64,000 nucleotides of DNA from positions 589,686 to 653,685 of the forward strand of contig JAWLAZ010000002.1 in assembly GCA_041395205.1 (NCBI GenBank), read 5' to 3'. The notes under the pieces were generated by a model. That model made no database searches. It worked only from the letters and a program-made list of their open reading frames with translations, and was not told the DNA's origin. Made by a program: the position numbers and the translations under genes. Shown here in pieces: positions 3,260-57,372 of this stretch; positions within the stretch are counted from its first letter, which is position 1, and each line of letters opens with the position of its first letter. The stretch is from a bacterium (lineage in GTDB: Bacteria; 4484-113; JAFGCY01).

Positions 3260-4303
3260 ATGTCGCAGAAACCACTCGACTATCAGGCCAGCGGTGTGAG
3301 CATCGCGGCCCAGGATGAGGCCATTGCCGCCTTCCGGCGCGACGTGGAATCCACGCATGGTCCGGAAGTCGTGGCCGGAGTCGGTGCCTTCGGCGCCGCC
3401 TTCCAGCCCAGCCTTTTTGGGATCAGCGCTCCGGTGCTCGTCAACAGCACCGACAGCCTCGGCACCAAGACCATCGTCCACAGCCGCTTCGGCACATGGG
3501 AGAACGCCGGCCGAGATGTGGTGGGCTGCGTGGTGAATGACATCATCTGCAGCGGGGCGCGGCCGCTCTACTTCCTCGACTATCTCGGCATCAACAAGGT
3601 CGTGCCGGAGCAGATCCACCAGATGGTCGGCAAGGGCATCGCCGCCGCCTGCCGTGAAATCGGCTGCGCGCTGATCGGCGGTGAGATCGCGGAGATGCGT
3701 GACGTCTACAAGCCGGGCGATTTCGACCTGGCGGGCTTCGCCGTGGGGATGGTCGACCGCAGCCGGATGCTGGACGGATCAGCCTGCCGCGAGGGCAGTG
3801 TACTGATCGGCCTGCGCTCCAACGGCGTGCACTGCAATGGCTTTTCGCTGGTCCGGGCTGCCTTCAGTGAGCTCAACCACGACCAGTGGACCTGCCACAA
3901 CGAGGCCCTCGGCTCCTCGCTGGCGCATGCCCTGCTGCAACCGACTGTCTGTTATGCAAATGCGGTCGGAGAGGCCTGCAACGCAGGCCTGCTGCAGGCT
4001 GCGGCCCACATCAGCGGCGGCGGGCTGCAGGACAATGTGCCACGGGTGGTCCCGGACGGCCTGGATGTAGAACTGGATCGGGCGGCGATTTCCGTTTTAC
4101 CCGTGTTTGATATAATTCAGAGCCACGGAAACATCTCACGGGATGAGATGTGGCACGTATTCAACATGGGGATCGGGTTTGTGGTCGTGGTATCCCCCGA
4201 GGCCGTGGATGACGTAATGCGCATCTGCGGGGAGCATTCCCCGCAGTTGATCGGCAGGCTCACCCGTGGCAGCGGAGCGGCGGAACTGCGATTCAGGGAC
4301 TGA
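3260..4303 (+). CDS. purM: phosphoribosylformylglycinamidine cyclo-ligase (AIR synthetase)
   Basis: 347-aa ORF with the PurM/AIRS family pattern: N-terminal YxxSGVxI, DSLGTKT, the GGEIAEM block, and a GFSLVR C-terminal domain. Confidence 0.9.
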   Translation: MSQKPLDYQASGVSIAAQDEAIAAFRRDVESTHGPEVVAGVGAFGAAFQPSLFGISAPVLVNSTDSLGTKTIVHSRFGTWENAGRDVVGCVVNDIICSGARPLYFLDYLGINKVVPEQIHQMVGKGIAAACREIGCALIGGEIAEMRDVYKPGDFDLAGFAVGMVDRSRMLDGSACREGSVLIGLRSNGVHCNGFSLVRAAFSELNHDQWTCHNEALGSSLAHALLQPTVCYANAVGEACNAGLLQAAAHISGGGLQDNVPRVVPDGLDVELDRAAISVLPVFDIIQSHGNISRDEMWHVFNMGIGFVVVVSPEAVDDVMRICGEHSPQLIGRLTRGSGAAELRFRD

Positions 4304-4739: not shown

Positions 4740-5552
4740 GTGACAACGAATGACTTACAAGCGAGATCCCGCAGCAGCCGCAGAGCCGGCCTGCGGGATT
4801 TCCATTTCTCCCGCATCCCGCGCCGCGGTTTCACCCGTGTGAGCCTGGTGCTGGCGATTGCCATCTTCGCGCTGGTCTCGCTGCTGGCGGGCATCCAGGC
4901 CGGCGACATCGACCTCGCGGGCATGCTCCCCGCAGGCAAGTCCGCGAAGAAGGCCGCGAAACCGCAGAACCCCCTGCTGCTGGCCAGCCCTGCTCCCAGC
5001 GACGCAGCTGCGGAAGATCCCACAGCCGCAGCGGAGGCTGCCGTGCCAACTGAACCGCTGGTCGCAGCCGTGCCCGAGGGCGCGCTGCGCATCGACGGCC
5101 GCACGCGCCAGCTGATCTGCCGTGCCTTCGGCCGGATGGACCCCGTGTTCGCCGCCGAACGGCTGACTGCCCTCAATGACAACGATGCCACGCTCGTGCT
5201 GAGCTGCCAGAAGCGCCGCGACCTGGCCTTCATCCTGGAATCAAGCGAACCCGCGGTGGCTGCCAACTGGGTCAACATCCTGCTGCAGATGGATGATGCG
5301 CAGCAGCTGCTGCCCCCCGGTGAGAGCATCCTCGACCAGGTGAACGAATCGCTTGATGCCGCACCGCCGGCCGAGGCTGACAATCTCGTGCAGCCCACTG
5401 CCGGGCCCGCCGTCGCCATGCGGCCGGACTTCATGCTCAGCCCGGAGGAGCATGCGGCCTTCCTCGCTCAATTCCCGCAGTACCGTGCCGATACGGATAC
5501 GGCGAGAGGGAGCGTGATTCCCGTGATTTCCGATTTCGAACTGACTGACTAG
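4740..5552 (+). CDS. membrane protein of unknown function, first gene of the flagellar hook cluster (possibly YlxF/MotE-like)
   Basis: One N-terminal TM helix (VSLVLAIAIFALVSLLAGIQAG). The remainder is Ala/Pro-rich. Synteny immediately upstream of fliK resembles ylxF in Firmicute fla operons. The homology call is weak. Confidence 0.45.
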   Translation: MTTNDLQARSRSSRRAGLRDFHFSRIPRRGFTRVSLVLAIAIFALVSLLAGIQAGDIDLAGMLPAGKSAKKAAKPQNPLLLASPAPSDAAAEDPTAAAEAAVPTEPLVAAVPEGALRIDGRTRQLICRAFGRMDPVFAAERLTALNDNDATLVLSCQKRRDLAFILESSEPAVAANWVNILLQMDDAQQLLPPGESILDQVNESLDAAPPAEADNLVQPTAGPAVAMRPDFMLSPEEHAAFLAQFPQYRADTDTARGSVIPVISDFELTD

Positions 5553-8774: not shown

Positions 8775-11120
8775 ATGGCAGGCAGTGCCTTCTTCACGGC
8801 CGCGAGCGGCCTTCGTAACCACCAGTTGCGCATCGACGCAATTGCCAACAACATCGCCAACGTCAACACGACGGGCTTCAAGGGCTCGAACGTGATCTTC
8901 TCGGACGTGCTGAGCCAGACCCTGCGCGGGGCCAGCGCGCCGACCTCCAACTTCGGCGGCATCAACCCGAAACAGGTCGGGCTCGGGATGCAGATCGCGG
9001 CGATCCACAACCTGATGCAGCAGAGCGCGCTCGAGAACACCTCGCGCCCCACGGACTTCGCGATCAACGGCAGCGGCTTCTTCACACTCTCCAACGGCAG
9101 CAGCAACATGTACACCCGCGCCGGCGACTTCAACGTCGACCGTGAGGGCCGGCTCGTTGCCAACAATGGCTGGCGCGTGCAGGGCTACACCCAGCTCACC
9201 GCCGACGGCCAGAAGGTCGACCCCGGTTCCAAGATCAGCGACGTCGTGATCAACTTCGGCCAGAAGATCGAGGCCCGCCAGACCACGATGCTCAACTACG
9301 CGAGCAACCTCGACAGCTCGAGCTTCCGCTACGGCAGCGCTGACAACGAGACCGCGAGCTTCGGCTCCACCGGGATCCTGACCGTGGCCGGCGCCGCCGA
9401 GCCCTGGGCGATCGCCGCCGGGGACTCGATCACCGCTCTCTCCGCCGGACCGGAGACCATCGCCGTCAACGGCAACACCGTCACCTATGACACCAGTGCC
9501 GCCGCCGACCTCGAGGAGGCCGCGAACATCGTGACCGAGGCCATCAACATCGACCCGGTCAGCAGCCTGCAGGTCCAGGCCACCGTGCGTGAGGTCAACG
9601 GCGAGTTCCAGGTCGTGCTGCAGAGCCGCAACGCCGGCACGAGCATCGACATCACCGCCGTCAGCGACCCGGCCTCCAGCGGCCTGCTCGTCGCGCTCTA
9701 CGAGGCCCCGAGCGAACCCGGCAGCTTCCTCGTCGGCCAGAACGCCGTGACTGTCACGGATGCCAAGGCCGCCACCGAGACCACCTCCGTGCCGATGGGC
9801 GTGGGCGTGAACCGCCCGGTGGCCGGTGACAGCTTCGTGATCAACGGCGTGACCGTCACGCTCGCGACCTCCGCCGGCCTGACCGACACCGCCGAGCAGA
9901 ACGCGATCCTCGTCGCCAACTCGATCAACAACACCCCGAACATCCAGGTCACGGCGATTGCCAACCCCAACGGCACGCTGAGCCTCGTGCAGAACTACGC
10001 CGGTAAGCAGCGCCAGCCCGCCGGTGCGCCGCTGGATGCGGCCGAGGCCGACATCTACATCGACGGCACAGCCACCGCCGGCCTCGCCGCGCGCTACGGC
10101 TTCAACACCTTCCAGGACTGGGGCATCGGCGCGCTTGGTGCTGATGCGGGCATCATTGACAACGGCGAGAACGCCCGCGCCGAGCTGGTCTTCACCCCGG
10201 AGAACGGCTCGCCCGAGCTCGTGCGCTTCTTCGAGGACTGGCCCTACGACCGCAGCACCGCCCCCGCCGCCTGGTCGCCGACCTTCTACATGGCGAGCAC
10301 GCTCGCCAACGTCCAGAACAGCATCGAGGGCAGCGGCCCGGACATGCCGCTCGTGCCCGGCGTGAACATCAGCATCGACGAGCTGATGCCCGGCGTTGCC
10401 AACTTCCGCACCGAGGACGCCTTCATGCACAGCACGAGCCGCATCGTCTACGACTCGCTGGGCAACCCGCACAACCTCGTGACGCAGTTCACGCACATCA
10501 ACGAGAACGAGTGGGAGTATGAACTGAGCCTGCCCGAGGAGCCGAACATCCAGCTCACCAGCACCACGGGCCGGATCACCTTCGGCGAGAGCGGCCTGAT
10601 CACCAGTGGCAACCCGCTCAACCCGGTGAGCTTCACCGCCCCCGGGGCCCAGCCGACCTCGATCGAGCTGACCTTCGACGGCAAGGGCAAGGGCATCAAC
10701 GGCATCACGCAGTTCGCCTCGACCAGCACCACCGCCGCCCGTGAGCAGGACGGCTACCCGATGGGCGTGCTGACTGACTTCGAGGCCGACCAGACCGGCA
10801 CGCTGATCGCCTTCTATGACAACGGCCAGCGCCGCCCGATCGCCCAGCTCAGCCTGGCGACCTTCAGCAACCCCGAGGGTCTGGAGCGCGCCGGCGACAC
10901 GGCCTTCATCCCCACGACCAACTCCGGCTCCCCGGTGCAGCTGCGCCCCGGCAGCGGCGGCAGCGGCGTGGTCTTCAACGGCTTCCTGGAGCAGTCCAAT
11001 GTGGACCTCGCCCAGGAATTCACGAACATGATCATCACCCAGCGCGGCCTGCAGGCCAACAGCCGGGTGTTCACCACCCAGGACGAGATCCTCAATGAGA
11101 TCGTGAACCTGAAGCGGTAA
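8775..11120 (+). CDS. flgE: flagellar hook protein with a large inserted domain
   Basis: N-terminus MAGSAFFTAASGLRNHQLRIDAIANNIANVNTTGFKGS and C-terminus FLEQSNVDLAQEFTNMIITQRGLQANSRVFTTQDEILNEIVNLKR are canonical FlgE D0/D1 segments. At 781 aa it implies a large central insertion. Confidence 0.9.
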   Translation: MAGSAFFTAASGLRNHQLRIDAIANNIANVNTTGFKGSNVIFSDVLSQTLRGASAPTSNFGGINPKQVGLGMQIAAIHNLMQQSALENTSRPTDFAINGSGFFTLSNGSSNMYTRAGDFNVDREGRLVANNGWRVQGYTQLTADGQKVDPGSKISDVVINFGQKIEARQTTMLNYASNLDSSSFRYGSADNETASFGSTGILTVAGAAEPWAIAAGDSITALSAGPETIAVNGNTVTYDTSAAADLEEAANIVTEAINIDPVSSLQVQATVREVNGEFQVVLQSRNAGTSIDITAVSDPASSGLLVALYEAPSEPGSFLVGQNAVTVTDAKAATETTSVPMGVGVNRPVAGDSFVINGVTVTLATSAGLTDTAEQNAILVANSINNTPNIQVTAIANPNGTLSLVQNYAGKQRQPAGAPLDAAEADIYIDGTATAGLAARYGFNTFQDWGIGALGADAGIIDNGENARAELVFTPENGSPELVRFFEDWPYDRSTAPAAWSPTFYMASTLANVQNSIEGSGPDMPLVPGVNISIDELMPGVANFRTEDAFMHSTSRIVYDSLGNPHNLVTQFTHINENEWEYELSLPEEPNIQLTSTTGRITFGESGLITSGNPLNPVSFTAPGAQPTSIELTFDGKGKGINGITQFASTSTTAAREQDGYPMGVLTDFEADQTGTLIAFYDNGQRRPIAQLSLATFSNPEGLERAGDTAFIPTTNSGSPVQLRPGSGGSGVVFNGFLEQSNVDLAQEFTNMIITQRGLQANSRVFTTQDEILNEIVNLKR

Positions 11121-11144
11121 TCGCTGAGCACTGAACCTGCCTGA

Positions 11145-11177
11145 GGGCGGCCCTGCGGGGCCGCCTTCGCGCTTTTC
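11145..11177 (+). terminator. rho-independent terminator after flgE
   Basis: GGGCGGCCC-tgcg-GGGGCCGCC stem-loop followed by a TTCGCGCTTTTC U-tract. Confidence 0.7.
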
Positions 11178-11481
11178 AGGTAATGTTCAGTCCATCTCCG
11201 GAACTGAGATTGAATATCTGTATTCTTATAAGGTAATATATAGGCACCTTAAATCAAGATTTGGGTGAATCCCGGAATCCGGTCGGAACTGCAACATTTG
11301 CAGGATCTGGAAAGTCCAGATTCCGGGGGATAAATCCAAGTCAAATGACGGCTTCCGTCGGGAGGGTTGGGGTTAAGATTAGTATTAAGTGGGATTTAAG
11401 TAAGCAGGCGGGTTTCGGGATTACATTATTGGCGGGTATTCCTGATTTCCAGTACCAAACCTAGGGGTAAGTTGTCTGAAC

Positions 11482-12198
11482 ATGTACGGAGCAAGGCTTA
11501 GCGAACTGTGGGGTGTGCCCGAGGGCATCCAGCAATTCTTTCTACTGGAGCAGAAGCTGGCACTGGCGCTCAGCACTGAGCCGGTGTTCCTGGCCCGCGA
11601 GCAGTCGTCGGGCATGCGCATGTGGGTCAAGTTCTCCGACGGTTCGGATGTCTCACTGAAGCGCCTCGCGGTGGAGGCGGACGCCCTGCGTTCCATCAGC
11701 CACCCGCACATCATCGCCCTGAAGATCGACAAGCGGGACTTCGAGGTACCCTTCATCGGCTTTCCCTGGATGGCCGAGCAGCCCCTGGCCGACATGGACG
11801 TGGATGCGATGTCCACGCCGGACAGGATCCGCATGGCGCTCAGCATCCTGGAGATCATTGACCACCTGCAGGGCATGGATCATCCCGTGGCCCACAACCG
11901 GATTAACACCGAGAACCTGTGGATCTCGCCCAGCACCGGCTGGGTCAGGCTCGCCAGCTTCGGGCACGCCCTGCGTTCCCCGCTGGAGGCCGACCTGCTG
12001 GCGGACCGTGAGCAGACGCTCAACCTGCTCAGTGAACTGCTGGGGCGCGGAGCCTCCGGGGAGGAACTCAAGGACCAGATCGTTGAAACCGGACTTGCCT
12101 GGGCTGAAAGCAGGCAAAACGGAATGGATGAGCTGCATGGCCTGCTGCGCCGGCAGTTCCTGAACTCCGTCACTGCGGATCTCCAGGCAATTACCTGA
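11482..12198 (+). CDS. Ser/Thr protein kinase-like pseudokinase (catalytic residues substituted)
   Basis: Kinase-fold landmarks are present but degenerate: the VAIK-like K (MWVKF), an alpha-C glutamate (LAVEAD), HPHIIAL, VAHNRINTENLWI in place of HRDLKPEN, and SFG in place of DFG. There is no Gly-rich loop. Confidence 0.55.
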   Translation: MYGARLSELWGVPEGIQQFFLLEQKLALALSTEPVFLAREQSSGMRMWVKFSDGSDVSLKRLAVEADALRSISHPHIIALKIDKRDFEVPFIGFPWMAEQPLADMDVDAMSTPDRIRMALSILEIIDHLQGMDHPVAHNRINTENLWISPSTGWVRLASFGHALRSPLEADLLADREQTLNLLSELLGRGASGEELKDQIVETGLAWAESRQNGMDELHGLLRRQFLNSVTADLQAIT

Positions 12199-12219
12199 GC
12201 TGGGTTAGGATAGGCTTCA

Positions 12220-15200
12220 ATGTTAAAAAGGTTTGATTTCGGCAAATCTCTCAACCGGCAGGTGGAAGCGTACAAGCGGCTGAACCCCCAGCAGCAGCAG
12301 AAGCGCCGCCCCGCCCTGCTCAAGAGTCTTGAGGAATATGCCCGCCGCTATCTCGAGGAAGTGATCAACCCCAACTCCGCCAATCCCGGCCAGCTCAAGA
12401 GCGGTGCCGAGAACCTGGTGGAGGCGGCTGCGGTGCTTGACGAGACCCGCGTGGCCTTTGAGACCTTCAGTGACATGGTGGCGCGCAGCCGCAAGGTGCC
12501 CGTGGTTCCCGGCCTCGCCGGCCTGGTGGACCGCATGCTCGAGCTGGAGAGTGATTCCCGCGAGCACCGCCTGTCCCTGCTCAACTGGCGCATCACGACG
12601 GGCAACATGCGCCCCGAGCGCCATCTTTCGTACCTGAGTGAACGGGCCAGCCTCACGAATGAGGTCAGCCACTGGAAGGACTTCGCCTGGGGACTGTCCC
12701 AGATGATCAACAAGGGCACCGTCAAGCAGGGAGATGACCTCGCGGTGCGTTCCCTTGAAACCCTGATTGAGAATCGCCAGAGCCTCGGCGACAAGGCCGT
12801 GGAAGTCACGCTGATGATGGCCGAGGCCCAGATCCTGCGCAAGAACGACCGCCAGGCCGAGGACCTGCTCGTTGAGATCATCTCCGAGGGCCGCAGCGTC
12901 GGCGAGGACTTCTACCAGCTCGCCAATTCCCTGCTGGACCACCGCCCCCAGTGCTGCTGGGAGCTGCACCAGATCGTGATGGAGCATTCCATCAAGGACT
13001 ACCGCAGCGGGCGCATCGGCTGGAACGTGCTCAGTGAGCGCCTCGAGCGCACGCACCAGCACCCGCTGGAGATTGCCAACTACCTGACGGTCCACAAGGA
13101 GATGGTGCGCGACGAGAAGCTCGCCGTGTACTGCCTGAAGCGCATCGTCAAGCTCGACAGCGAGCTGATCAAGGACAAGATCGGCAACTGGTTCCGCGCG
13201 TTCCAGCATGCCAAGCAGCAGCCGCCCAGCGCCGCCAATGAGTACCTGCAGATCGCGGCGGGCAAGGTTGCCAACATTGACTTCCCCGAGCTGCCGGAGT
13301 ACGTGATCCCGGACAGCCGCCCGACCCCGGATGCCAGCGTCAACGGCGCGGGCCCGGCCCCGGGTGCCGATGCCAGCCTCGAGCTCGACCAGGAGGGCAT
13401 CATCGACATCCAGGTGGAGGAGCCCGCCCCCGTCTATGACGACGAGGAGCCGGACTTCGCCACGGAGGATGTGAAGTACGACGACGAAGAGGATGAACCG
13501 GCCTGGGAGACCGCTGCGGAGGACGATGCCGCGGTGGAAGCCGAGGACGACTTCTCGCTCGACGACCTGCCGGATGACGAGGATGAGCTGGACGAGCCCG
13601 CGGCAGCGGTGCAGCCTCCCGCGCAGGAGCCGCAGCATGTCACGGCCGTGGTCTCAGCGGACTTCGACCTGGAGCGCCTGATCGAGAGCCTCGCGGACTG
13701 CGAGCGCCCCAACCAGGTCGGCGCCGTGCTGGAAAAGCACATAAATGCTGACAAACAGAGCGTCAATGAGCTGCACGCCATCAGCCACAACATCAATTCC
13801 TCCGGGCTGGCCCCCTGGCTCGTGGAGGAATCGCACCTGTGGTTCGCCGAGCAGCTGTTCCTGCAGGATGACAGCTCCGCCGCGGCCATGGAACTGCGCA
13901 GCATCCGCGTCCCCGACGAGGAGCATGCCAGCCGCCTGCGCCAGCGCGTGGAGCGCATGTTCGGCAGCCTGGACGGGGCTCCGGCCATCGCCGCGCACGT
14001 GGCGCGCCTGGCCCTGCGCACCGGTGACTACGAATCCGCCCTGGCCCGGGCCACGATGCTGCCCGAGGGTGAGGAGGACCGCCAGAACCTGCTGAAGTCC
14101 ATCGAGCAGTGGATCAACGCCCAGGCGGACATCCCGCCGGACATGCTGTTCGCGCTGGCCAATGCGCAGCGCATGCAGTCCGAGGATCCGCTGGCCGGCT
14201 TCGAGGCCGCCACCGCGGCGAGCCTGCTGGATCTCAACAACGGCAACATCCAGCAGGGCTACAGCATCTGGGTGGAGTCCATCAACCCGCGCGACGTGCA
14301 CATGCAGCGCGCCCGCCAGGCCAGCTACCTGACAACGGAGAAGGGCCACAGCGAGCTGCTGCCGATCGCGCTCGATGAAATCGACGCACTTGACAACTAC
14401 CTCGATGAGGAGATTAGCCGCGAGCCGATCCAGTGGCTGGACAACCTGCGCCCGCTGCTGGATGACCTCGACGAGAACGACCCGGCGCGCAACCGCATGC
14501 GCTGGACGCGGATCTACCTGAACCTCACGCAGCGCATCGGCAACATCGAGCAGTTCGAGCAGGTGCTGCAGCATGCGGCATCGCTGATCGCGCCTGAAGC
14601 CACGATGGACCTCATCAATGAGTACGGCGAGAAGCTGCCCGCCGGGGTGCGCTTCACCGTGCGCTACCGCTCGCTGGTGCATGCCGGCAAGTGGCAGGAG
14701 GCCATCAGCCTGTTCGACTCCCCCGAGGAGTTCATCATCAACGACTCGATGACCATCGAGCAGATCTGCAGTGAACTGCCGGACGAGGCCCTGCTGCCCG
14801 CCACGGAGAAGCTGCTCGGGGCCTTCCGCAGCCGCAATGACAGCGGTGCCCGCCTAGGCCTGATCAAGTCCATGAGCGACCGCTACGAGTCCGGCGGGCT
14901 CGGGCTGGATTCCAACCCGCCGCTCAAGGGCCTGCTGGATGAGACCCTGATGGATCTCTGCCGCGAGGAATTCGAGCCGGCCCTGCGCTACCGCCTGCAG
15001 ACCAACCGCGACATGGGCGACCTCGAGAACGTGGCCCGCGACCTGCTGGCCCTGGCCCGCGGCCATGACGAGAAGGCACTCGCCGAGCTGGAGGAGACCT
15101 TCTACCTGATGGTCAAGGCCCCGGAGCAGTCCACCACGGTGATCGAGATCGCCGAGGTGCTGGCCACGGCCTACAGCAAGCAGAGCCCGGATGCGGCGAT

Positions 15201-18012
15201 CGCGATCCTCACCGCGGCCGGCAACAAGAATGAGAACCCCGAATGGGCCCTGCGCAAGATCTCGGAGCTGAACCTCGTGCCCCGGGACGTGGCGGGGCTG
15301 GTGCGCCTCGGCGACCTGGCCGTGGAGAATGGCAACCTCGAGGAGGGCATCACCATCGCCGGGCACCTGCTGGATGGCAACGCCCCGCTGGAGGCCCGTG
15401 AACTGGCCACGAAGCTCGTGGACAGCAATGCCAGCTCACCAGAGGCGATGATCGCGCTCGTGCGCTCGCTGCTGGTGCCGCCGGTGCGCGACCTCAAGCA
15501 GGCCACGAGCCGCCTGATGAAGCTGCGCCAGCTCTTCCAGCAGAAGGAGATCCACGCCAACGAGGCCCTGCGCCCGCTGCGCCAGTACGCCCAGGAACAG
15601 CTCGCCGACTGCAGCGACCAGGCGGACTGCATGCGCTTCAACCTGGCCCTGGCCGCGATCAGCGGCGACCAGGAGCGCGCCACCTCGCTCGTGCGCGAGA
15701 TCAATTCCAACGGTGACGAGAACAGTCCCGAGCTGCTGGAGCTGTTTGACCAGCTGGCGCTCGTGGACACCGACCTCCCCAGCGCGATCGAGGTCAGCTG
15801 GGGCCGCGCCCTGTTCAATGCAGGACGCATCGACGAATCGCTGGACCGCCTCGCCGGTCTGCGTGATGCCGTCGGCGAATATCCCGAATACATCCAGCTG
15901 CTGGAGGAGATCAAGGAGAAGGCCGCCGGGCCGGGCGCCAGCATGCAGCTGGGCGAGGCCTACCTGCGCGTGCACCTCTGGCAGCGCAGCGCTGAGGAGT
16001 ACGCGGCGGCCCTCGACAAGGACCCGAGCCTCGCCGAGCCTATCCTCACGCAGCTCAGACACCACCATGCGCTGGTGCCCAACCCGATGAAGTATCCCCT
16101 GCACCTGCTCGCGCTGAAGGCCGTGGCCCACAGCGAGCGGGTCAGCGACTGGGGCTGGGCCGTGAGCGCCCTGAACTGGCTCGTGCCGCGCTGGAGCGCC
16201 GAGGAACTCTACGAGCTGGCCAAGGACCTCTACCGCAACTACCCGAACGTGGAGATCGAGGAGGATGACCTCCCGCAGCTGCTGCTGCATCTCTACCGCC
16301 TGGCCAACAAGGTCGGAAGCCGCGCGGATGCGATCAACTACTTCAATGAGGCCCGCAAGCTGGCGGGCGGCATGAATGAGGAGCTGATCGGTGCGCTGCG
16401 CGAGCTGGACCTGAACGACCTGCCCGAGGATGAGGACCTGCTCTTCAAGATCCGCATGTTCCAGCTGGAAAGCGCGATGGTCGAGAAGGATGAGGACCGC
16501 GTCGTGGAATGCGCGGGCCTGCTGGCCCAGACCGGGGCCGAGGGCCGCGAACAGGCGGTCAGCATCCTCGGTGAATACCAGCAGCAGGCCGGTGACAGCC
16601 TGCCCGTGATCGTGGCCCGCCTGAAGCTGATCGACCTCAGCCATGCCGAGGGCCGCAACCTGTTCGTCAATGAACTGCTCAGTGCCCTGCAGGGCAACCT
16701 GCCCAAGCAGCAGGTGCGCTCGCTGATCAGCATCGTGCTCGATCTCGTGCAGGCCACCCCGGACAGCCCCGAGCTGATCGAGCTGCTGCTGCAGCTCTTC
16801 GGCAAGCTGGGCGACCAGTCCCGCGCCTGGCAGCTTTCGCTGCTCTACGTGGAGGGTGAGGAAGCCCCGGCTCCAACTGCGCTGAGCGTGATCTCCGACC
16901 TCGCTGCCGACCGCTACGCCATCGGCCAGCAGCTGGCCCGCGTGGAGATCCTGATGCTGCGCGGCGACCATGAGGCGGCAGTCGAGGCCCTGGAGGCCGT
17001 GGACGGCAGCGCACTCGGCGATCGCAGCCCCCTGGCCGTGAACCTCGCGGAGGCCCTGCTCAGCAGTCCCTCCCAGGCCCGCGCCCGCGCCTGGCTGATC
17101 GGCTGGTACCGCGCCAACGGGCGGATGGACCTCGCCGGCGACCACCTCGTGTGGGCCTATGCCACCGCTGATCCGCAGCCGCATGACTGGCTCGTGGCCG
17201 AGAAGAGCGGCGACCTCAAGTACCGCTATGCCATGCTGCTGGAGCGCATGGGCCGCCGGGATGAAGCCTTCGGGGTCTTCCAGGAAGCGCTCAGTGCCGG
17301 GCCGCAGGACAAGCTGGTGCTGGCTGCGCTCAACATCCGGCTCGCCGGGATCTATGAGGAGCAGAACCAGCTGGACCAGGCGCTGGAATTCGCCACGGCA
17401 TCCGCCGAGCTGCAGCCCGAACGGGCCAGCCTGCAGGCGCATGTCGAGAAGCTGGTGCGCGACATCAACCGCCAGCGCATCGAGGAAACCCGCAACGAAC
17501 CCGACAGCGTGCAGCGTACGCTGCGCATCGCTGAACTGGCACTCAACAACAATGAGGTCGAGGAAGCGATCAACGAGCTGCAGGCCGGCATCGGCCGCGG
17601 CCAGGTCGCGCCCGAGGTCTACCTGGTGCTGGCGGAGTGCTTCAACCTCTCCGGCGACTACAACATCGCGCGCCGGGCCTTCGCGGAACTGCTGCGCAAT
17701 GACAAGCTGGACGATGCCGACCCCGAGCTGCGCCTGCGTACGCTCTACGGACTGGCCCAGGTCGAGGAAAGCCTCAGCAACCGCGAGGAAGCGATCCGCA
17801 ACCTGGAGCAGATCCTCGTGCTGCGCCAGAACTTCCGGGACAGCCGCCAGCGTCTGGATGCCCTGTACAACCAGACCGGCGCCGCCCCGCGCGAGAGCCA
17901 GCCAGCTCCCGCGGCAACTCCGGCTCCGGCCGCCTCCTCGGACAAGTCGAGCATGATCAACGAGCTGGATGAAATCCTCTCGATGCTCGGTGACGACGAC
18001 GAGGACTCATGA
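12220..18012 (+). CDS. giant (1930-aa) all-helical acidic protein with C-terminal TPR-like repeats; unknown function
   Basis: Single uninterrupted ORF. It has a poly-acidic block (DDEEPDFATEDVKYDDEEDEPAWETAAEDDAAVEAEDDFSLDDLPDDEDELDE), helical-repeat content throughout, TPR-like repeats near the C-terminus, and an acidic DDDEDS tail. The start lies 21 nt after the pseudokinase stop. Confidence 0.7.
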   Translation: MLKRFDFGKSLNRQVEAYKRLNPQQQQKRRPALLKSLEEYARRYLEEVINPNSANPGQLKSGAENLVEAAAVLDETRVAFETFSDMVARSRKVPVVPGLAGLVDRMLELESDSREHRLSLLNWRITTGNMRPERHLSYLSERASLTNEVSHWKDFAWGLSQMINKGTVKQGDDLAVRSLETLIENRQSLGDKAVEVTLMMAEAQILRKNDRQAEDLLVEIISEGRSVGEDFYQLANSLLDHRPQCCWELHQIVMEHSIKDYRSGRIGWNVLSERLERTHQHPLEIANYLTVHKEMVRDEKLAVYCLKRIVKLDSELIKDKIGNWFRAFQHAKQQPPSAANEYLQIAAGKVANIDFPELPEYVIPDSRPTPDASVNGAGPAPGADASLELDQEGIIDIQVEEPAPVYDDEEPDFATEDVKYDDEEDEPAWETAAEDDAAVEAEDDFSLDDLPDDEDELDEPAAAVQPPAQEPQHVTAVVSADFDLERLIESLADCERPNQVGAVLEKHINADKQSVNELHAISHNINSSGLAPWLVEESHLWFAEQLFLQDDSSAAAMELRSIRVPDEEHASRLRQRVERMFGSLDGAPAIAAHVARLALRTGDYESALARATMLPEGEEDRQNLLKSIEQWINAQADIPPDMLFALANAQRMQSEDPLAGFEAATAASLLDLNNGNIQQGYSIWVESINPRDVHMQRARQASYLTTEKGHSELLPIALDEIDALDNYLDEEISREPIQWLDNLRPLLDDLDENDPARNRMRWTRIYLNLTQRIGNIEQFEQVLQHAASLIAPEATMDLINEYGEKLPAGVRFTVRYRSLVHAGKWQEAISLFDSPEEFIINDSMTIEQICSELPDEALLPATEKLLGAFRSRNDSGARLGLIKSMSDRYESGGLGLDSNPPLKGLLDETLMDLCREEFEPALRYRLQTNRDMGDLENVARDLLALARGHDEKALAELEETFYLMVKAPEQSTTVIEIAEVLATAYSKQSPDAAIAILTAAGNKNENPEWALRKISELNLVPRDVAGLVRLGDLAVENGNLEEGITIAGHLLDGNAPLEARELATKLVDSNASSPEAMIALVRSLLVPPVRDLKQATSRLMKLRQLFQQKEIHANEALRPLRQYAQEQLADCSDQADCMRFNLALAAISGDQERATSLVREINSNGDENSPELLELFDQLALVDTDLPSAIEVSWGRALFNAGRIDESLDRLAGLRDAVGEYPEYIQLLEEIKEKAAGPGASMQLGEAYLRVHLWQRSAEEYAAALDKDPSLAEPILTQLRHHHALVPNPMKYPLHLLALKAVAHSERVSDWGWAVSALNWLVPRWSAEELYELAKDLYRNYPNVEIEEDDLPQLLLHLYRLANKVGSRADAINYFNEARKLAGGMNEELIGALRELDLNDLPEDEDLLFKIRMFQLESAMVEKDEDRVVECAGLLAQTGAEGREQAVSILGEYQQQAGDSLPVIVARLKLIDLSHAEGRNLFVNELLSALQGNLPKQQVRSLISIVLDLVQATPDSPELIELLLQLFGKLGDQSRAWQLSLLYVEGEEAPAPTALSVISDLAADRYAIGQQLARVEILMLRGDHEAAVEALEAVDGSALGDRSPLAVNLAEALLSSPSQARARAWLIGWYRANGRMDLAGDHLVWAYATADPQPHDWLVAEKSGDLKYRYAMLLERMGRRDEAFGVFQEALSAGPQDKLVLAALNIRLAGIYEEQNQLDQALEFATASAELQPERASLQAHVEKLVRDINRQRIEETRNEPDSVQRTLRIAELALNNNEVEEAINELQAGIGRGQVAPEVYLVLAECFNLSGDYNIARRAFAELLRNDKLDDADPELRLRTLYGLAQVEESLSNREEAIRNLEQILVLRQNFRDSRQRLDALYNQTGAAPRESQPAPAATPAPAASSDKSSMINELDEILSMLGDDDEDS

Positions 18013-18047
18013 TGGACGTATTGAATTAGAGAAGGACTGATCGGTTA

Positions 18048-18578
18048 GTGGACAATTCATCCTCTGAGAGGGAAATGGCTGAGGAGCTCAAGGCTACACG
18101 CGTGCGCGTGCAGGATCTGGAGCTGCAGGTCGAGGACCTCTCCGAAAGAATCAGCAACATCGCATCCCAGCTCGGAAAGCTGACCAAGGTCGTGCGCCAG
18201 CTGATGTCGGGCGACGGCGCAGTGCAGAACGGCAGCGGCCCGGCGGTGGCTGAACCCGCGGCTGCAGTACCCGTCCAGCAGAGTGCATCCGAGAGCCCCG
18301 CCCCGCGCGAGAACGACATCCCGCGCGAGATGCTGCAGGCGATCCGCATGATCACCGAGAACCGCAGCGAGGATGCCCAGAAGATCGTCACCTCGCAGCC
18401 GCGTGAAATGCTGGCGGACCATCCCGGAATCGTGGCCCTCGTCGCAGCTTCCCTGCGCATCCACAAGGGCGAATTCGGCGTGGCCCGCGCGGCGCTGGAC
18501 AAGGCCCGCAAGCTGATCACGGACCAGCGCCTGATCAAGGTCGTGCGCTTCCTCGAGAAGCAGATCCCCGTCGACTAG
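18048..18578 (+). CDS. coiled-coil protein, likely co-transcribed with the giant protein
   Basis: 176-aa ORF starting 36 nt after the giant ORF stop. The N-terminal heptad-rich helix (ELKATRVRVQDLELQVEDLSERISNIASQLGKLTKVV) suggests a coiled coil. Confidence 0.5.
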   Translation: MDNSSSEREMAEELKATRVRVQDLELQVEDLSERISNIASQLGKLTKVVRQLMSGDGAVQNGSGPAVAEPAAAVPVQQSASESPAPRENDIPREMLQAIRMITENRSEDAQKIVTSQPREMLADHPGIVALVAASLRIHKGEFGVARAALDKARKLITDQRLIKVVRFLEKQIPVD

Positions 18579-19473: not shown

Positions 19474-19534
19474 CGGTGTGGGCTGGCTGTATTCGTTCCC
19501 ACGACTGCGGCTACTACTGGAAGGAGAAATCCCC

Positions 19535-21169
19535 GTGCGCATTTCATCTGTGAACATCGCCACGCTGCTGCTCGCCGCAATCCTGCTGGGCGCCTGCGCT
19601 GGCAATCCGGGCCTGCAGTCCGCAGCGCAGGACGGCAATGCTGAACTCGGCTATGCCAACTGGCAGCCGCAGCAGTCGATGGACCCCGTGCAGTCGCTGG
19701 ACGGCGCACTGCGCAGCAGTGCCGGCCTGCAGGCCGGTGGCTTCAGGCTCACGGCACTCGACAGCGGCAACTATCCGGACAGCCAGGTGCAGTCCGCCCT
19801 GCGCATGCAGCGCAGCGGAGACACCCTGCAGATCAGCAGCAATGTGCCGCTGGCGAGCGCCATGCTCTATCTGCAGAGCAGCACGGGCAGCGAGCACGTG
19901 CAGCAGGTCAGCTTCGGCGATCCCGCCGGCGTTGCCATCAGTGCTGAGCTGGACAACGGTGTGCAGGCCATCGGCCTGACCGGCCGCAACGGGGCCCTGC
20001 TCCCGGCCGGCAGCGTGCTTGCGAGCGTGGAGCTGGCTCCCGGAGCCGCTGCAGCCAGCCGCAGCGTGAAGGCCATTGACGCCGTCAACAACCGCGTGGG
20101 CCTGGTGGATCAGCAGAAGCTGATCGCCCAGGACAACGGCGAGGCGCTGGCCACCCTCACCTGGCGTGAGCGCTGCACCGGTGACTACGACATCAACGGT
20201 GTCGTGACCATCGCCGACATCACGCCGCTGGGCATCAACCTCAACAAGAGCTATGACAAGGAAGACCCTGACGCCTCCCCCAAGGTCGAGGTGGCGGACG
20301 GCGACTGGAACGGCCTGATCACGCTTGCGGACATCACGCCGATCGGCCAGAACATCGGCACGCAGATCGTCGGCTACGACGTCTACCGCACGACCCTCAG
20401 CGATGTCTCGGAGGATCCGACCCCGGATGTCAAGGACGCGCGCTGGTCGAAGATCGAGAATGCCAGCGATCCCGGCCTGCCGAGCGCCCCGCGCTCCGGT
20501 GCCCCGGTTACGGGTTCGCGCCTGACCTACACCTTCCTTGACAACACGATTCCCGACAGCGGCGGCAGCTATGCCTGGGCCGTGCTGCCGATCGCCGCGC
20601 AGGACCAGACACCGCGCGAGGGCCCGGTCAGCAACATCGCCAAGAGCGGCGTGAGCGCCAAGGGTGCGCCGGTGGACATCGTGATCCAGGATCCGGCCGG
20701 CAGCAGCCTGACGCTTGGCGACGAATTCTGGGTGGCGGTGCGCATCAGCGACGTGATCGGCCTGTTCAGCGCCAACATGCGCCTTGAGTACGACTCCAGC
20801 CTGCTGGAGGTCGTGGAGGTGGACACGGCGGACCAGATCCTGCCGGACTACGTGGACGGCGCCTTCAGCGGTGTGAACCTGCTGGTCGACCCGCTGTTCA
20901 TCGGGATTGACAACGTCGCTCCGGCTGACAGCCCCTACGTGCTGCTGGGCTTCAATGACACCCAGAAGCAGGGCACGCCGGTCGTGGACGGCAGTGGCAA
21001 CGTGGGCTACATCAAGTTCCGCGCCATCGCCGAGGGCAGCAATGCCGAGGCGGTGCGCTGGCCGCAGAGCTCGACCTTCATCCTGATGTGGGGTGAGGAA
21101 TTCGGCGTGCCGGCGGTGAACCCGATCCTCGGCCCGCCGCTGGATATCACGGTCGGCCCGGCGAGCTAG
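19535..21169 (+). CDS. secreted lipoprotein with two dockerin-like Ca-binding repeats and a C-terminal cohesin-like domain
   Basis: Probable GTG start at 19535 with a GGAAGGAG RBS; the upstream ATG at 19478 adds an implausible leader. Signal and lipobox LLGACAG. Dockerin-like loops are DYDINGVVTIADITPLG and DGDWNGLITLADITPIG. The C-terminus GAPVDIVIQDPAGSSLTLGDEFWVAVRISDV...LEYDSSLLEVVEV resembles cohesin modules. Confidence 0.65.
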   Translation: MRISSVNIATLLLAAILLGACAGNPGLQSAAQDGNAELGYANWQPQQSMDPVQSLDGALRSSAGLQAGGFRLTALDSGNYPDSQVQSALRMQRSGDTLQISSNVPLASAMLYLQSSTGSEHVQQVSFGDPAGVAISAELDNGVQAIGLTGRNGALLPAGSVLASVELAPGAAAASRSVKAIDAVNNRVGLVDQQKLIAQDNGEALATLTWRERCTGDYDINGVVTIADITPLGINLNKSYDKEDPDASPKVEVADGDWNGLITLADITPIGQNIGTQIVGYDVYRTTLSDVSEDPTPDVKDARWSKIENASDPGLPSAPRSGAPVTGSRLTYTFLDNTIPDSGGSYAWAVLPIAAQDQTPREGPVSNIAKSGVSAKGAPVDIVIQDPAGSSLTLGDEFWVAVRISDVIGLFSANMRLEYDSSLLEVVEVDTADQILPDYVDGAFSGVNLLVDPLFIGIDNVAPADSPYVLLGFNDTQKQGTPVVDGSGNVGYIKFRAIAEGSNAEAVRWPQSSTFILMWGEEFGVPAVNPILGPPLDITVGPAS

Positions 21170-29969: not shown

Positions 29970-30513
29970 GTGAATTGCCTCCGGCCGCCTCCACGGGCCG
30001 TCCCTTCATAGCAAAATGACTGAACCCCTCCGCCTGCAGGCGCTCCCGCAGGCTGCGGCGGCCGCGCATCAGGCGCAGGCGCACCGCACTGCCGCTCAGC
30101 CCGGTGATCACCGCGATCTCCTCCGTGCTGAGCCCTTCCATGTAGAACAGGCAGATCACCTCGCGATTCTGCTCCGGCAGGCTGTTGAGCACCGCCCAGA
30201 GATGGTTCTGCGCCGTGCTCTGGCTGTCGATGTGCCAGACCTGGCGCACGCCCTCCAGGGTGCGCTCGCGCGTGTCGCGCCGCCGGCAGCGGTCGATGAA
30301 GCGCCGGTGCACGATGCTCAGCAGCCAGGAACGGAAACTCTCATCCTCGCGCAGGCTGTCCAGCCGCCGCAGTGCCTGCAGCAGCGAGTCCTGCAGCAGG
30401 TCCTCAGCGTCCTCGCGCGTGCTGCAGAGGCGCGCGCAGAAGCGCCAGGCCAGGCTGTAGATCCCGTCCGTAAGCAGCAGGTCGAAGCGCCTGCGGATAT
30501 CCGCATCCAGCAT
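29959..30513 (-). CDS. ECF-family RNA polymerase sigma-70 factor
   Basis: Region 2 (DAEDLLQDSLLQALRRL...FRSWLLSIVHRRFIDRCRRR) and region 4 (LPEQNREVICLFYMEGLSTEEIAVITGLSGSAVRLRLMRGRRSLRE). Confidence 0.85.
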   Translation of the reverse strand: MLDADIRRRFDLLLTDGIYSLAWRFCARLCSTREDAEDLLQDSLLQALRRLDSLREDESFRSWLLSIVHRRFIDRCRRRDTRERTLEGVRQVWHIDSQSTAQNHLWAVLNSLPEQNREVICLFYMEGLSTEEIAVITGLSGSAVRLRLMRGRRSLRERLQAEGFSHFAMKGRPVEAAGGNSHEC

Positions 30514-57309: not shown

Positions 57310-57372
57310 CTCTATTTTGAGAGGTACCGGTATATCGTGCACACCGGTTGCTGGATATAATCAGGATGAGGG

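What the first reader, a model, noticed from the sequence alone, without database searches (positions are those of the whole stretch)
11178..18578. Candidate novel module: pseudokinase, 1930-aa acidic helical/TPR giant protein and coiled-coil protein downstream of flgE
After the flgE terminator, an AT-rich ~300-bp leader with short direct repeats precedes a tightly spaced three-gene unit (gaps of 21 and 36 nt). The first gene is a kinase-fold protein whose catalytic HRD, DFG and Gly-loop are all substituted (HNR/SFG), so it is likely an inactive scaffold or sensor. The second is a 1930-aa uninterrupted ORF with a long poly-acidic block, pervasive helical repeats, C-terminal TPR-like repeats and an acidic tail. 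The third is a small coiled-coil protein. The architecture (giant acidic, repeat and TPR-rich, next to flagellar genes) is reminiscent of polar landmark hubs such as HubP/FimV. No LysM or other recognisable anchoring domain is present, and I recognise no family for the giant ORF. The pseudokinase pairing points to a regulated scaffold. This is hypothesis only.
Basis: inference. Interest (0 to 1): 0.7.

Follow-up and report, generated by a model that had tools for sequence, protein, structure and literature searches.

The report
Lineage-specific pseudokinase–giant solenoid scaffold operon
Next to the flagellar hook gene of an uncultured bacterium (candidate phylum UBP7) lies a separate three-gene operon encoding a dead kinase, a 216-kDa all-helical repeat protein and a small coiled-coil protein; it is a real, conserved, phylum-restricted unit of unknown role that looks like a soluble scaffold, and its link to the flagellum is not supported.

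Summary
Three ORFs (A 238 aa, B 1930 aa, C 176 aa) sit at the stated coordinates behind a flgE terminator hairpin and a 361-nt AT-rich spacer.

- A has a complete protein-kinase fold but lacks the Gly-loop, the HRD Asp and the DFG Asp in every ortholog.
- B is not a frameshift fusion. More than 20 full-length homologs exist and dN/dS is 0.15–0.17. It is an α-solenoid with an acidic disordered linker, a very strongly constrained three-TPR core (ω≈0.02), C-terminal TPRs and a conserved terminal helix.
- C has an N-terminal coiled coil and a small helical C-terminal domain.
- No homolog of A or of B's N-domain was found outside candidate phylum UBP7. For the N-domain, an exhaustive profile search of 1.84 billion proteins gave 21 hits and nothing weaker.
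- The operon has its own conserved promoter and long 5′UTR.
- The trio survives where the hook cluster is deleted or absent (L007, L012, L013) and, judged by gene size and position, in unrelated neighbourhoods.
- A short-B clade lacks A and has an enlarged C-like protein.
- No LysM, membrane segment or FimV domain is present.

It is most likely a soluble scaffold complex. The HubP/FimV-like flagellar-hub reading is not supported. Interest is moderate to low.

The parts
11143..11168 (+). GC-rich hairpin (GAGGGCGGCCC / GGGCCGCCTTC) followed by TTTT; likely intrinsic terminator of flgE, separating the hook operon from the A-B-C unit
   Evidence: Inverted repeat I4, 11-nt arms, 91% complementary. 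The hairpin is conserved in L005, L001 and L006. The simple terminator scan did not call it because the T-run is short.
11207..11246 (+). Conserved promoter block: TTGAAT (11210-11215), 18-nt spacer, TAATAT (11234-11239). It is the 5' boundary of the conserved unit.
   Evidence: The block is nearly invariant in five close-clade loci, including L007, where the upstream DNA is unrelated. The distant clades carry a perfect TATAAT at the equivalent place, and six of them carry GAAAC-N25-TATAAT exactly once per locus. The sigma-70 scan threshold was not reached in the window itself, so the hexamer assignment is an inference.
11247..11481 (+). Long 5'UTR (~235 nt), conserved in sequence within the close clade; role unknown
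   Evidence: Alignments A4 and A8. Folding z-score is -1.64 with almost no covariation. No Rfam match. No conserved small ORF is evident.
11482..12198 (+). Gene A: 238-aa soluble stand-alone pseudokinase (26.7 kDa). It keeps the beta3 Lys (K50) and alphaC Glu (E65) in most orthologs, and lacks the Gly-loop, HRD-Asp and DFG-Asp in all.
   Evidence: Pfam Pkinase E 5.3e-6, below the gathering score. PDB profile search matched 124 kinases, with motif alignment. AF2 model pLDDT 87.6. Foldseek against the PDB gave at least 1982 matches at E<=0.001, all 50 listed being kinase or pseudokinase domains, probability 1.0, TM 0.6-0.7. Alignments A1 and A7. dN/dS 0.10-0.12.
12220..18012 (+). Gene B: 1930-aa (215.7 kDa, pI 4.6) soluble alpha-solenoid
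   Evidence: 18 homolog clusters of about 1800-2070 aa, plus one 1294-aa fragment. Alignment A3. Region profile. dN/dS 0.15-0.17. No TM segment.
12220..13254 (+). B N-domain (aa 1-345): family-specific all-helical solenoid with invariant SRKVPVVPGL / WRITTG / YLSERA motifs
13297..13659 (+). B acidic, variable, gap-rich linker (aa ~360-480), probably disordered
   Evidence: Identity to distant homologs is 0.09-0.15 with gap fraction 0.28-0.45 and net charge -38. It has the highest dN/dS of any B segment against L001 (0.31), though not against L025 (0.17). Residues 396-470 have 34 D/E against 1 K/R.
15700..16239 (+). B hyperconserved core (aa 1161-1340): three TPR-like hairpins and the most constrained part of the operon. 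It is absent from the short-form B that also lacks gene A.
   Evidence: 64-81% identity to homologs that are ~35% identical elsewhere. dN/dS 0.018-0.027. Weak TPR_2 and BatC TPR hits. Missing in the short forms L021 and P0033.
17200..17859 (+). B C-terminal canonical TPR array (aa ~1661-1880)
   Evidence: Several Pfam TPR families above their gathering scores. Consensus-TPR structures E 1.2e-9.
17950..18009 (+). B C-terminal conserved amphipathic acidic helix (..ELDEILSMLGDDDEDS) after a Pro/Ala linker; candidate docking peptide
   Evidence: Consensus ILDEILSLLG is conserved in the long forms and also in the short forms (ILEGILDLLN).
18048..18578 (+). Gene C: 176-aa protein (19.3 kDa) with an N-terminal coiled coil (~aa 10-55), a low-complexity linker and a conserved helical TPR-like C-terminal domain (~aa 100-175)
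   Evidence: Alignment A2. PDB profile hits to GCN4-type coiled coils, E 3.9e-7. The gene often overlaps the B stop codon in other lineages. dN/dS 0.15-0.22.

Best explanation
A-B-C is a self-contained operon confined to candidate phylum UBP7. It has its own housekeeping-type promoter and a long 5'UTR, and it encodes a soluble cytoplasmic scaffold complex.

B is a 216-kDa TPR-like alpha-solenoid. It has a family-specific N-domain, an acidic disordered linker, a very strongly constrained three-TPR core, a C-terminal TPR array and a terminal docking helix.

C is the ancestral partner of B and is often translationally coupled to it. It is a coiled-coil oligomerising adaptor with a small helical head.

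A is a catalytically dead Hanks-type kinase domain used as a protein-interaction or switch module. It appears only together with the ~930-residue central insert of B, so it probably docks there.

The position next to flgE reflects where the hook cluster sits in many UBP7 genomes, not co-transcription or an obligatory functional link.

Shown: gene reality, fold assignments, loss of catalytic residues, phylum restriction within the collections searched, the separate promoter element, persistence without the hook cluster, and the A/long-B correlation.

Inferred: physical complex formation, the A docking site, and a scaffold role.
For: Reality and selection:
- Full-length homologs exist.
- dN/dS is 0.10-0.22, comparable to flgE at 0.13.

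Dead kinase:
- The HRD Asp is replaced by R/Q/E, the DFG Asp by S/C/I/G, and the Gly-loop by ALALST or similar, in 15 orthologs.
- The PDB profile alignment to CaMKII agrees, and the model has a kinase fold.

Solenoid and scaffold nature:
- Only TPR signals are found in B.
- The N-domain model gives generic solenoid hits.
- No enzymatic, DNA-binding, NTPase or defence domains are found.
- No TM segments are found.

Operon:
- Gaps of 21 and 35 nt with SD sites.
- B and C overlap in L003, L021 and the P0014/P0016 contigs.
- A terminator hairpin lies before the unit and convergent recO lies after it.

Own promoter:
- A TATAAT box lies 120-250 nt upstream of A in the 13 distant-clade loci examined; the window's clade has TAATAT.
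- GAAAC-N25-TATAAT is unique to this leader in six loci.
- Homology in L007 resumes exactly at the promoter block.

Independence from flagellar genes:
- The unit is intact without the hook cluster in L007, L012 and L013, with A and B homology checked and C checked where the sequence allows.
- A trio of matching gene sizes and order sits in unrelated neighbourhoods in the P0014 and P0016 contigs.

A linked to the central insert of B:
- The short-form clade (L021, L023, L024, P0033) lacks A, the long leader and B residues ~750-1680.
Against: - No direct evidence of protein-protein contacts; multimer modelling was not available.
- The A/long-B correlation rests on a single evolutionary split.
- flgE is the immediate upstream neighbour in about 14 distinct loci from the best-sampled clades. 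A flagellum-related role therefore cannot be excluded.
- Whether the genomes without the adjacent hook cluster still have flagella elsewhere could not be checked.
- Broad synteny (aminotransferase, AIRS, recO, cohesin protein) is also conserved, so part of the co-occurrence is simple vertical inheritance.
- 'Scaffold' is a default reading for enzyme-less repeat proteins.
Confidence: 0.55

Rival explanations
1. Flagellar or polar landmark hub. B would be a non-homologous analogue of HubP/FimV that recruits or positions flagellar or chemotaxis machinery at the pole, with A as a regulatory subunit.
For: flgE is directly upstream in the window and in about 13 other distinct loci from several clades. 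B combines a large acidic region with C-terminal TPRs, as HubP/FimV do (PMC12918733). In L004 a CheA gene lies about 9 kb downstream.
Against: No LysM, no TM segment and no FimV-domain hit. A terminator hairpin and a separate conserved promoter lie between flgE and A. The hook cluster is cleanly replaced in L007 with A-B intact. It is also absent next to the unit in L012, L013, the P0014/P0016 contigs and the short-form clade. No other flagellar genes lie in the window.
Confidence: 0.15
2. TPR co-chaperone or assembly factor. B would use its TPR grooves to hold C-terminal peptides of client proteins (possibly secreted or envelope proteins) during assembly, with C as an oligomerising partner, in the manner of CpoB/YbgF-like or Hsp70/90 co-chaperone TPRs.
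For: TPR-like repeats run along the whole of B. The very strongly constrained three-TPR core suggests a fixed peptide ligand. C and its 913-aa counterpart in L021 have a coiled coil followed by a TPR-like C-terminus, like CpoB (weak TolA_bind_tri hit E 0.012 and TPR_2 hit E 0.084).
Against: All three proteins lack signal peptides and TM segments, unlike periplasmic CpoB. No chaperone or ATPase gene lies in the unit. The hits to CpoB-type models are far below threshold.
Confidence: 0.12
3. Signalling module. A would retain nucleotide binding, or would be the substrate or allosteric partner of an active Ser/Thr kinase encoded elsewhere, and B would be the TPR platform that couples it to targets, as with the PknG TPR domain.
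For: A keeps the beta3 Lys and alphaC Glu in most orthologs, and the catalytic-loop Asn in many. Kinase-TPR partnerships are known (PMC8546545; 10.1101/2025.01.12.632604).
Against: The Gly-loop and both catalytic Asp residues are gone in all orthologs. K50, E65 and N145 are themselves lost in the L004/P0041 clade. No active kinase, phosphatase or FHA gene is nearby. The short-form clade works without A.
Confidence: 0.13
4. Artefact. The giant ORF would be a chance open frame or a fusion of frameshifted genes in a GC-rich genome.
For: GC-rich genomes produce long spurious ORFs; many overlap B on the opposite strand.
Against: More than 20 homologs of the same length at 30-96% identity. dN/dS is 0.15-0.17 with region-specific constraint. 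The N-domain gives a confident AF2 model.
Confidence: 0.01

Closest known systems
HubP / FimV polar landmark proteins (Vibrio, Shewanella, Pseudomonas)
   Same: A large protein with an extensive acidic region and C-terminal TPR-type repeats. In this window it sits beside flagellar genes.
   Different: No periplasmic LysM-like domain, no transmembrane segment and no FimV C-terminal domain match. The N-domain is family-specific. The protein is soluble, it has pseudokinase and coiled-coil partners, and its flagellar adjacency is not conserved.
Bacterial Hanks-type pseudokinases (the seven families of the bacterial STK atlas; the MviN-linked pseudokinase domain; YukC/EssB of T7SSb)
   Same: A eukaryotic-type kinase fold with catalytic residues lost, presumably used for protein-protein interaction or scaffolding.
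   Different: A is a 238-aa stand-alone soluble domain with a compact C-lobe. It keeps the VAIK-Lys/alphaC-Glu pair in most members and loses both catalytic Asp residues. In the atlas, VAIK-Lys substitutions occur in all seven families (10.1101/2025.01.12.632604). A is found only in UBP7 and always directly upstream of the long form of B.
Kinase-TPR partnerships such as PknG (kinase fused to a TPR domain)
   Same: A kinase-fold module working with a TPR platform.
   Different: PknG is an active kinase with the TPR fused in cis (PMC8546545). Here the kinase fold is dead, it is a separate polypeptide, and the TPR partner is about 2000 aa.
CpoB/YbgF (coiled-coil trimerisation domain plus TPR domain)
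   Same: C, and its 913-aa counterpart in L021, have an N-terminal coiled coil, a linker and a small TPR-like C-terminal domain.
   Different: C has no signal peptide. There are only sub-threshold hits to the model and no Tol-Pal context. This is architectural resemblance only.
Eukaryotic giant alpha-solenoids (separase N-terminal region, TTC29, TFIIIC subunit, huntingtin, exportins)

Membership tests
HubP/FimV polar landmark family | Periplasmic LysM-like peptidoglycan-binding domain (PMC12918733) | tested here: not met
   No LysM hit in Pfam or NCBIfam scans of B, including segment-wise scans at E<=1.
HubP/FimV polar landmark family | Transmembrane region | tested here: not met
   The best 19-residue Kyte-Doolittle window in B scores 1.08, against a threshold of ~1.6. 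A and C are also below threshold.
HubP/FimV polar landmark family | Extensive acidic cytoplasmic region | tested here: met
   B has pI 4.63. Residues 396-470 have 34 D/E against 1 K/R.
HubP/FimV polar landmark family | C-terminal FimV-type TPR domain | tested here: not met
   C-terminal TPRs are present, but no FimV-domain model was hit in NCBIfam or Pfam; only generic TPR families matched.
HubP/FimV polar landmark family | Polar localisation and recruitment of flagellar or chemotaxis clients | not testable with these tools
   Needs microscopy or interaction assays in an uncultured lineage.
Active Hanks-type Ser/Thr protein kinase | Glycine-rich loop GxGxxG | tested here: not met
   The loop reads ALALST in the window and is equally Gly-free in all 15 orthologs.
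Active Hanks-type Ser/Thr protein kinase | Catalytic HRD aspartate | tested here: not met
   H138-N-R in the window, and H-x-R/Q/E in all orthologs. The PDB profile alignment places this opposite the HRD of CaMKII.
Active Hanks-type Ser/Thr protein kinase | Metal-binding DFG aspartate | tested here: not met
   S159-F-G in the window, and S/C/I/G-F-G/M/S in orthologs. It aligns to the DFG of CaMKII.
Active Hanks-type Ser/Thr protein kinase | beta3 Lys - alphaC Glu salt bridge | tested here: inconclusive
   K50 and E65 are present in most orthologs but replaced in the L004/P0041/P0042/P0045 clade.
Pseudokinase (protein-kinase fold without catalytic residues) | Bilobal protein-kinase fold | tested here: met
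   AF2 pLDDT 87.6, pTM 0.84. Foldseek against the PDB gave at least 1982 matches at E<=0.001; all 50 listed are kinase domains (probability 1.0, TMq 0.57-0.70), including the IRAK3 pseudokinase. 124 kinases matched by sequence profile.
Pseudokinase (protein-kinase fold without catalytic residues) | Loss of at least one of VAIK-Lys, HRD-Asp, DFG-Asp, conserved across the family | tested here: met
   HRD-Asp and DFG-Asp are absent in all 15 aligned sequences.
TPR repeat proteins | Tandem 34-residue helix-turn-helix repeats recognised by TPR models | tested here: met
   TPR_2, TPR_14, TPR_19, TPR_8, TPR_12 and others score above their gathering cut-offs for residues 1661-1930. Consensus TPR structures E 1.2e-9. 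Elsewhere in B only sub-threshold TPR signals are found.
Flagellar hook operon (fliK-flgD-flgE unit) | Co-transcription with flgE | tested here: inconclusive
   The terminator hairpin and a separate conserved promoter argue against it. No transcript data are available.
Flagellar hook operon (fliK-flgD-flgE unit) | Consistent co-occurrence with flagellar genes | tested here: not met
   The hook cluster is absent next to an intact unit in L007, L012, L013, the P0014/P0016 contigs and the short-form loci. Genome-wide flagellar content of those organisms was not testable.
Anti-phage defence systems (PADLOC) | Match of components to known defence protein models | tested here: not met
   B and C have no hits. 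A has only generic kinase-domain similarity to PD-T4-6 and Mad6 kinases.

The most novel reading that the evidence does not exclude
The B-C pair, with A as a later regulatory add-on, could be a previously unknown, phylum-specific cytoplasmic organiser. It would be a membrane-independent, non-homologous functional analogue of HubP/FimV/PopZ-type hubs that positions large machines (the flagellar basal body in flagellated UBP7 lineages, other clients elsewhere). The dead kinase would bind the very strongly constrained three-TPR core as a conformational switch.
Probability: 0.12. Interest if true: 0.6.

Novelty: new variant of a known kind. Interest (0 to 1): 0.35.

Why it matters
If the complex is real, it adds a new stand-alone bacterial pseudokinase family and a giant soluble solenoid partner to the short list of bacterial pseudokinase-based scaffolds. 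It also gives a conserved, apparently single-locus marker operon for the uncultured phylum UBP7. The natural variants form a ready-made comparative series for working out which parts interact: long B with A, short B without A but with a five-fold enlarged C-like protein, and lineages with or without the adjacent hook cluster. It does not at present bear on a long-standing open question, and the flagellar connection that made it attractive is weak.

Tried and rejected
- Rfam (gathering over the whole window; E-value mode on the leader) found nothing meaningful.
- RNA structure in the 5'UTR: z = -1.64 and almost no covariation among five sequences, so no claim of a structured element.
- The leader's 'direct repeats' are two-copy chance-level matches.
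- A sigma-28 reading of the conserved cGATAT element was considered by eye and rejected, because the upstream element spacing (25 nt from GAAAC) does not fit TAAA-N15-GCCGATAA. GATATAAT also occurs at two other places in the window, at least one just upstream of a gene start, so it is probably the general -10 box.
- No small leader ORF is evidently conserved.
- Defence-system reading: PADLOC gave only generic kinase hits.
- PDB sequence-profile searches of B and C gave only TPR and coiled-coil hits.
- Exact-sequence look-up of window protein A found no record.
- DNA for the P0014 and P0016 contigs could not be fetched. A/C homology there rests on gene size and position only, although L022, from the same clade as P0014, does show A directly upstream of B.
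- The hhalign match between the L021 913-aa protein and C is weak (probability 32%, E 4.7e-4, N-terminal coiled coil only). Calling it a C homolog is tentative.
Full report
**1. Observation**

- A: 11482..12198, 238 aa.
- B: 12220..18012, 1930 aa.
- C: 18048..18578, 176 aa, GTG start.

The gaps are 21 and 35 nt, and each holds a Shine-Dalgarno site. Upstream lie a YlxF-like ORF, fliK, flgD, a TIGR02530 flagellar gene and an unusually long flgE of 781 aa. Downstream, recO converges on C with 12 nt between them.

After flgE there is a GC-rich 11-bp hairpin at 11143-11168 with a short T-run. A 361-nt spacer follows, with GC 0.48 against 0.64 for the following 3 kb. The 'short direct repeats' in the spacer are two-copy, chance-level matches. 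No other flagellar or chemotaxis genes occur in the 64-kb window.

**2. Gene A is a genuine pseudokinase**

- The Pfam Pkinase hit is sub-threshold (26.5 bits against a cut-off of 31.7).
- A family profile matches 124 solved kinases. In the CaMKII alignment, A's H-x-R sits on HRD and S-F-G sits on DFG.
- In 15 orthologs down to 27% identity, the HRD Asp is always R/Q/E, the DFG Asp is always S/C/I/G, and the Gly-loop contains no glycine pattern.
- The β3 Lys (K50) and αC Glu (E65) persist in most orthologs but are lost in one clade.
- An AF2 model (pLDDT 87.6) shows a β-rich N-lobe, an αC helix and a compact helical C-lobe.
- Foldseek returns at least 1982 matches at E≤0.001. All 50 listed are kinase or pseudokinase domains at probability 1.0 and TM 0.6-0.7, including the IRAK3 pseudokinase.
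- dN/dS is 0.10-0.12.
- In the bacterial STK atlas, VAIK-Lys substitutions occur in all seven pseudokinase families (10.1101/2025.01.12.632604). A's pattern, with Lys/Glu kept and both Asp lost, in a stand-alone 238-aa protein, differs from these.
- The A family has only 15 clusters, all 232-238 aa apart from one fragment.

**3. Gene B is real, giant and family-specific**

Homologs:
- Eighteen homolog clusters were found. Seventeen are about 1800-2070 aa and one is a 1294-aa fragment. All come from MAGs.
- The GTDB species-representative scan found seven loci. All are labelled UBP7, 'bacterium' or 'Planctomycetales bacterium', and they include the complete genome HK-STAS-UBP7_A-1.

Layout by region:
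- A conserved N-domain (1-345).
- A gap-rich acidic linker (360-480); residues 396-470 have 34 D/E against 1 K/R.
- A helical body.
- A hyperconserved core (about 1161-1340).
- A second helical stretch.
- Canonical TPRs (1661-1880).
- A Pro/Ala linker.
- A conserved acidic amphipathic terminal helix.

Selection: dN/dS is 0.15-0.17 overall, 0.02-0.03 for the core, and up to 0.31 for the linker.

Fold and family:
- Only TPR models hit B, significantly at the C-terminus and weakly elsewhere, including the core.
- An exhaustive HMM search with the N-domain profile over 1.84 billion representatives found 21 proteins, all E≤2.5e-22, and nothing weaker. The domain has no detectable relatives outside the family.
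- No TM segment or signal peptide is present in A, B or C.

**4. Gene C**

C has an N-terminal coiled coil (GCN4-type hits, E 3.9e-7), a low-complexity linker and a conserved ~75-aa helical C-terminal domain. It evolves fast (26-31% identity at the distances where B is ~40%) but remains under purifying selection (ω 0.15-0.22). In several lineages its start overlaps the B stop codon.

**5. Its own promoter and leader**

- Within the close clade the spacer is conserved in long invariant blocks. In L007 the conservation begins exactly at the promoter block (window ~11207), even though the DNA upstream is unrelated.
- All the distant-clade loci examined carry a perfect TATAAT 120-250 nt upstream of A.
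- In six loci the composite GAAAC-N25-TATAAT occurs exactly once per ~20-kb locus, always in this leader.
- The window's clade has TTGAAT-N18-TAATAT.
- GATATAAT also occurs at two other places in the window, at least one just upstream of a gene start. It therefore looks like the general -10 box rather than a flagellar-specific promoter.
- The ~235-nt 5'UTR shows no convincing structure (z -1.64, little covariation) and no Rfam match.

**6. Co-occurrence and the flagellar link**

A-B-C, or A-B where the contig ends, is found with flgE immediately upstream in about 14 distinct loci: the window, L001, L003, L005, L006, L008, L011, L014-L018, L020 and L025-L027. There are clear exceptions:

(a) L007 is 75% identical in B and is nested among hook-bearing sisters. 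The whole 6.5-kb ylxF-fliK-flgD-flgE cluster is cleanly replaced by 460 nt of unrelated DNA, while the promoter, the leader, A and the available part of B are intact.

(b) L013 and L012 read AIRS, CarboxypepD_reg, leader, A, B, then C or a 67-aa coiled-coil remnant of C, then recO, with no hook cluster.

(c) The contigs of P0016 and P0014 carry [227/225 aa]-[B 1815/1818 aa]-[164/161 aa] in two quite different neighbourhoods. DNA could not be fetched, so the identity of the flanking genes there rests on size and position. L022, from the same clade, does show A directly before B.

The trio therefore behaves as a unit that does not depend on the hook cluster or on the surrounding synteny. Whether the organisms without the adjacent cluster are non-flagellated could not be tested.

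**7. A natural deletion series**

A distinct clade (L021, L023, L024, P0033) encodes a 910-911-aa short B. It keeps the N-domain, the first helical segment (equivalent to residues 502-750), the C-terminal TPRs and the terminal helix. It lacks residues ~750-1680, including the hyperconserved core.

In this clade there is no gene A and no long leader, and B follows the lipoprotein gene after ~40 nt. The ORF overlapping the B stop (ATGA) is a 913-aa coiled-coil repeat protein. Its first 50 residues weakly match the start of C (hhalign E 4.7e-4, probability 32%), and it ends in a TPR-like motif.

So B plus a coiled-coil partner is the common core. A, the leader and B's central insert appear together. 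This is one evolutionary event, so it is only suggestive that A docks on the insert or core.

**8. Mechanism**

The most economical reading is a soluble cytoplasmic scaffold:
- B provides several TPR-type binding surfaces separated by a disordered acidic linker.
- C oligomerises through its coiled coil.
- A is a non-catalytic interaction or switch module.

Complex formation, the docking site and the cellular role are inferences. Rivals that cannot be excluded are a flagellar or polar hub analogue, a TPR assembly factor, and a signalling platform. The artefact reading is refuted.

**9. Comparison with known systems**

HubP/FimV are defined by a LysM-like domain, a TM segment, an acidic cytoplasmic region and a C-terminal FimV TPR domain (PMC12918733). 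Only the acidic region is met here, so B is not a member of that family.

A qualifies as a pseudokinase but matches none of the described bacterial families by motif pattern. PknG-type kinase-TPR pairs (PMC8546545) and pseudokinase scaffolds such as YukC/EssB (PMC9600267) are functional precedents, not relatives.

**10. Verdict**

The flagellar-hub hypothesis is not supported. This is a phylum-restricted, uncharacterised scaffold-type operon built from known kinds of parts in a new combination. It is moderately interesting for pseudokinase and UBP7 biology, but it is not a surprise to specialists and has no direct bearing on a major open question.

Noticed in passing
L013:3983-4018, L015:2211-2246, L016:9060-9095, L017:9041-9076, L018:977-1013, L020:9064-9098; window 11207-11246: An operon-specific promoter signature, GAAAC-N25-TATAAT, occurs exactly once per locus, always upstream of gene A. 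The window's clade uses TTGAAT-N18-TAATAT instead. The fixed 25-nt spacing is too long for a standard -35/-10 pair, so GAAAC may be a regulator site or an UP-like element.
   Followed up: partly
L021:9995-15471 (also L023, L024, P0033): A short-form clade: a 911-aa B lacks the central ~930 residues, gene A is absent, and the overlapping downstream ORF is a 913-aa coiled-coil protein with repeated ELEARE..P.P.DH..EL.EL units. It looks like an expanded counterpart of C.
   Followed up: partly
L007:8548-9012: A clean replacement of the entire 6.5-kb ylxF-fliK-flgD-TIGR02530-flgE cluster by 460 nt of unrelated non-coding DNA in one MAG (JAHEFU010000041.1). Its closest sisters (L025-L027) keep the cluster. 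This may mark loss of motility in that lineage.
   Followed up: partly
window 4740-5552 (+): A 270-aa ORF directly upstream of fliK has no significant Pfam hit. Its L014 ortholog carries a weak MgtE_N hit, which suggests a YlxF/MotE-like flagellar protein that belongs to the hook cluster.
   Followed up: no
window 12220-12264: The NCBI annotation of the identical protein (P0001, 1916 aa) starts 14 codons downstream. The invariant N-terminal motif F5-D6-G8-K9-L11 shows that the longer 1930-aa start is correct.
   Followed up: yes
window 8775-11120; L014:6049-8955: FlgE is unusually long in this phylum: 781 aa here and 968 aa in L014. The extra material lies between the D1 and D2 regions.
   Followed up: no
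window 28191-30513 (-): An ECF-type sigma factor (184 aa, 29959-30513) overlaps the start of a 592-aa ORF with no Pfam hit (28191-29969). This may be a sigma/anti-sigma pair.
   Followed up: no
window 50854-51474 (-): An IS200-like (Y1_Tnp) transposase gene, which is the only mobile-element signal seen in the window.
   Followed up: no
window 19478-21169 (+): A cohesin-domain protein (563 aa) followed by DUF2007 genes is conserved downstream of recO in nearly all UBP7 loci. Cohesin domains are unusual outside cellulosome-type systems.
   Followed up: no
window 4109-4116 and 57354-57361 (+): GATATAAT occurs twice in the window against 0.16 expected. One copy is inside the 3' end of the AIRS gene, ~200 nt before the lipoprotein/hook-cluster genes. 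The other is 12 nt before the GntR-aminotransferase ORF. It is probably the lineage's general -10 element, and the second case hints at a near-leaderless transcript.
   Followed up: no
whole window: A large share of the ORFs tested (at least 20 of about 45) have no Pfam family at E<=0.001, which is consistent with a poorly characterised candidate phylum.
   Followed up: no
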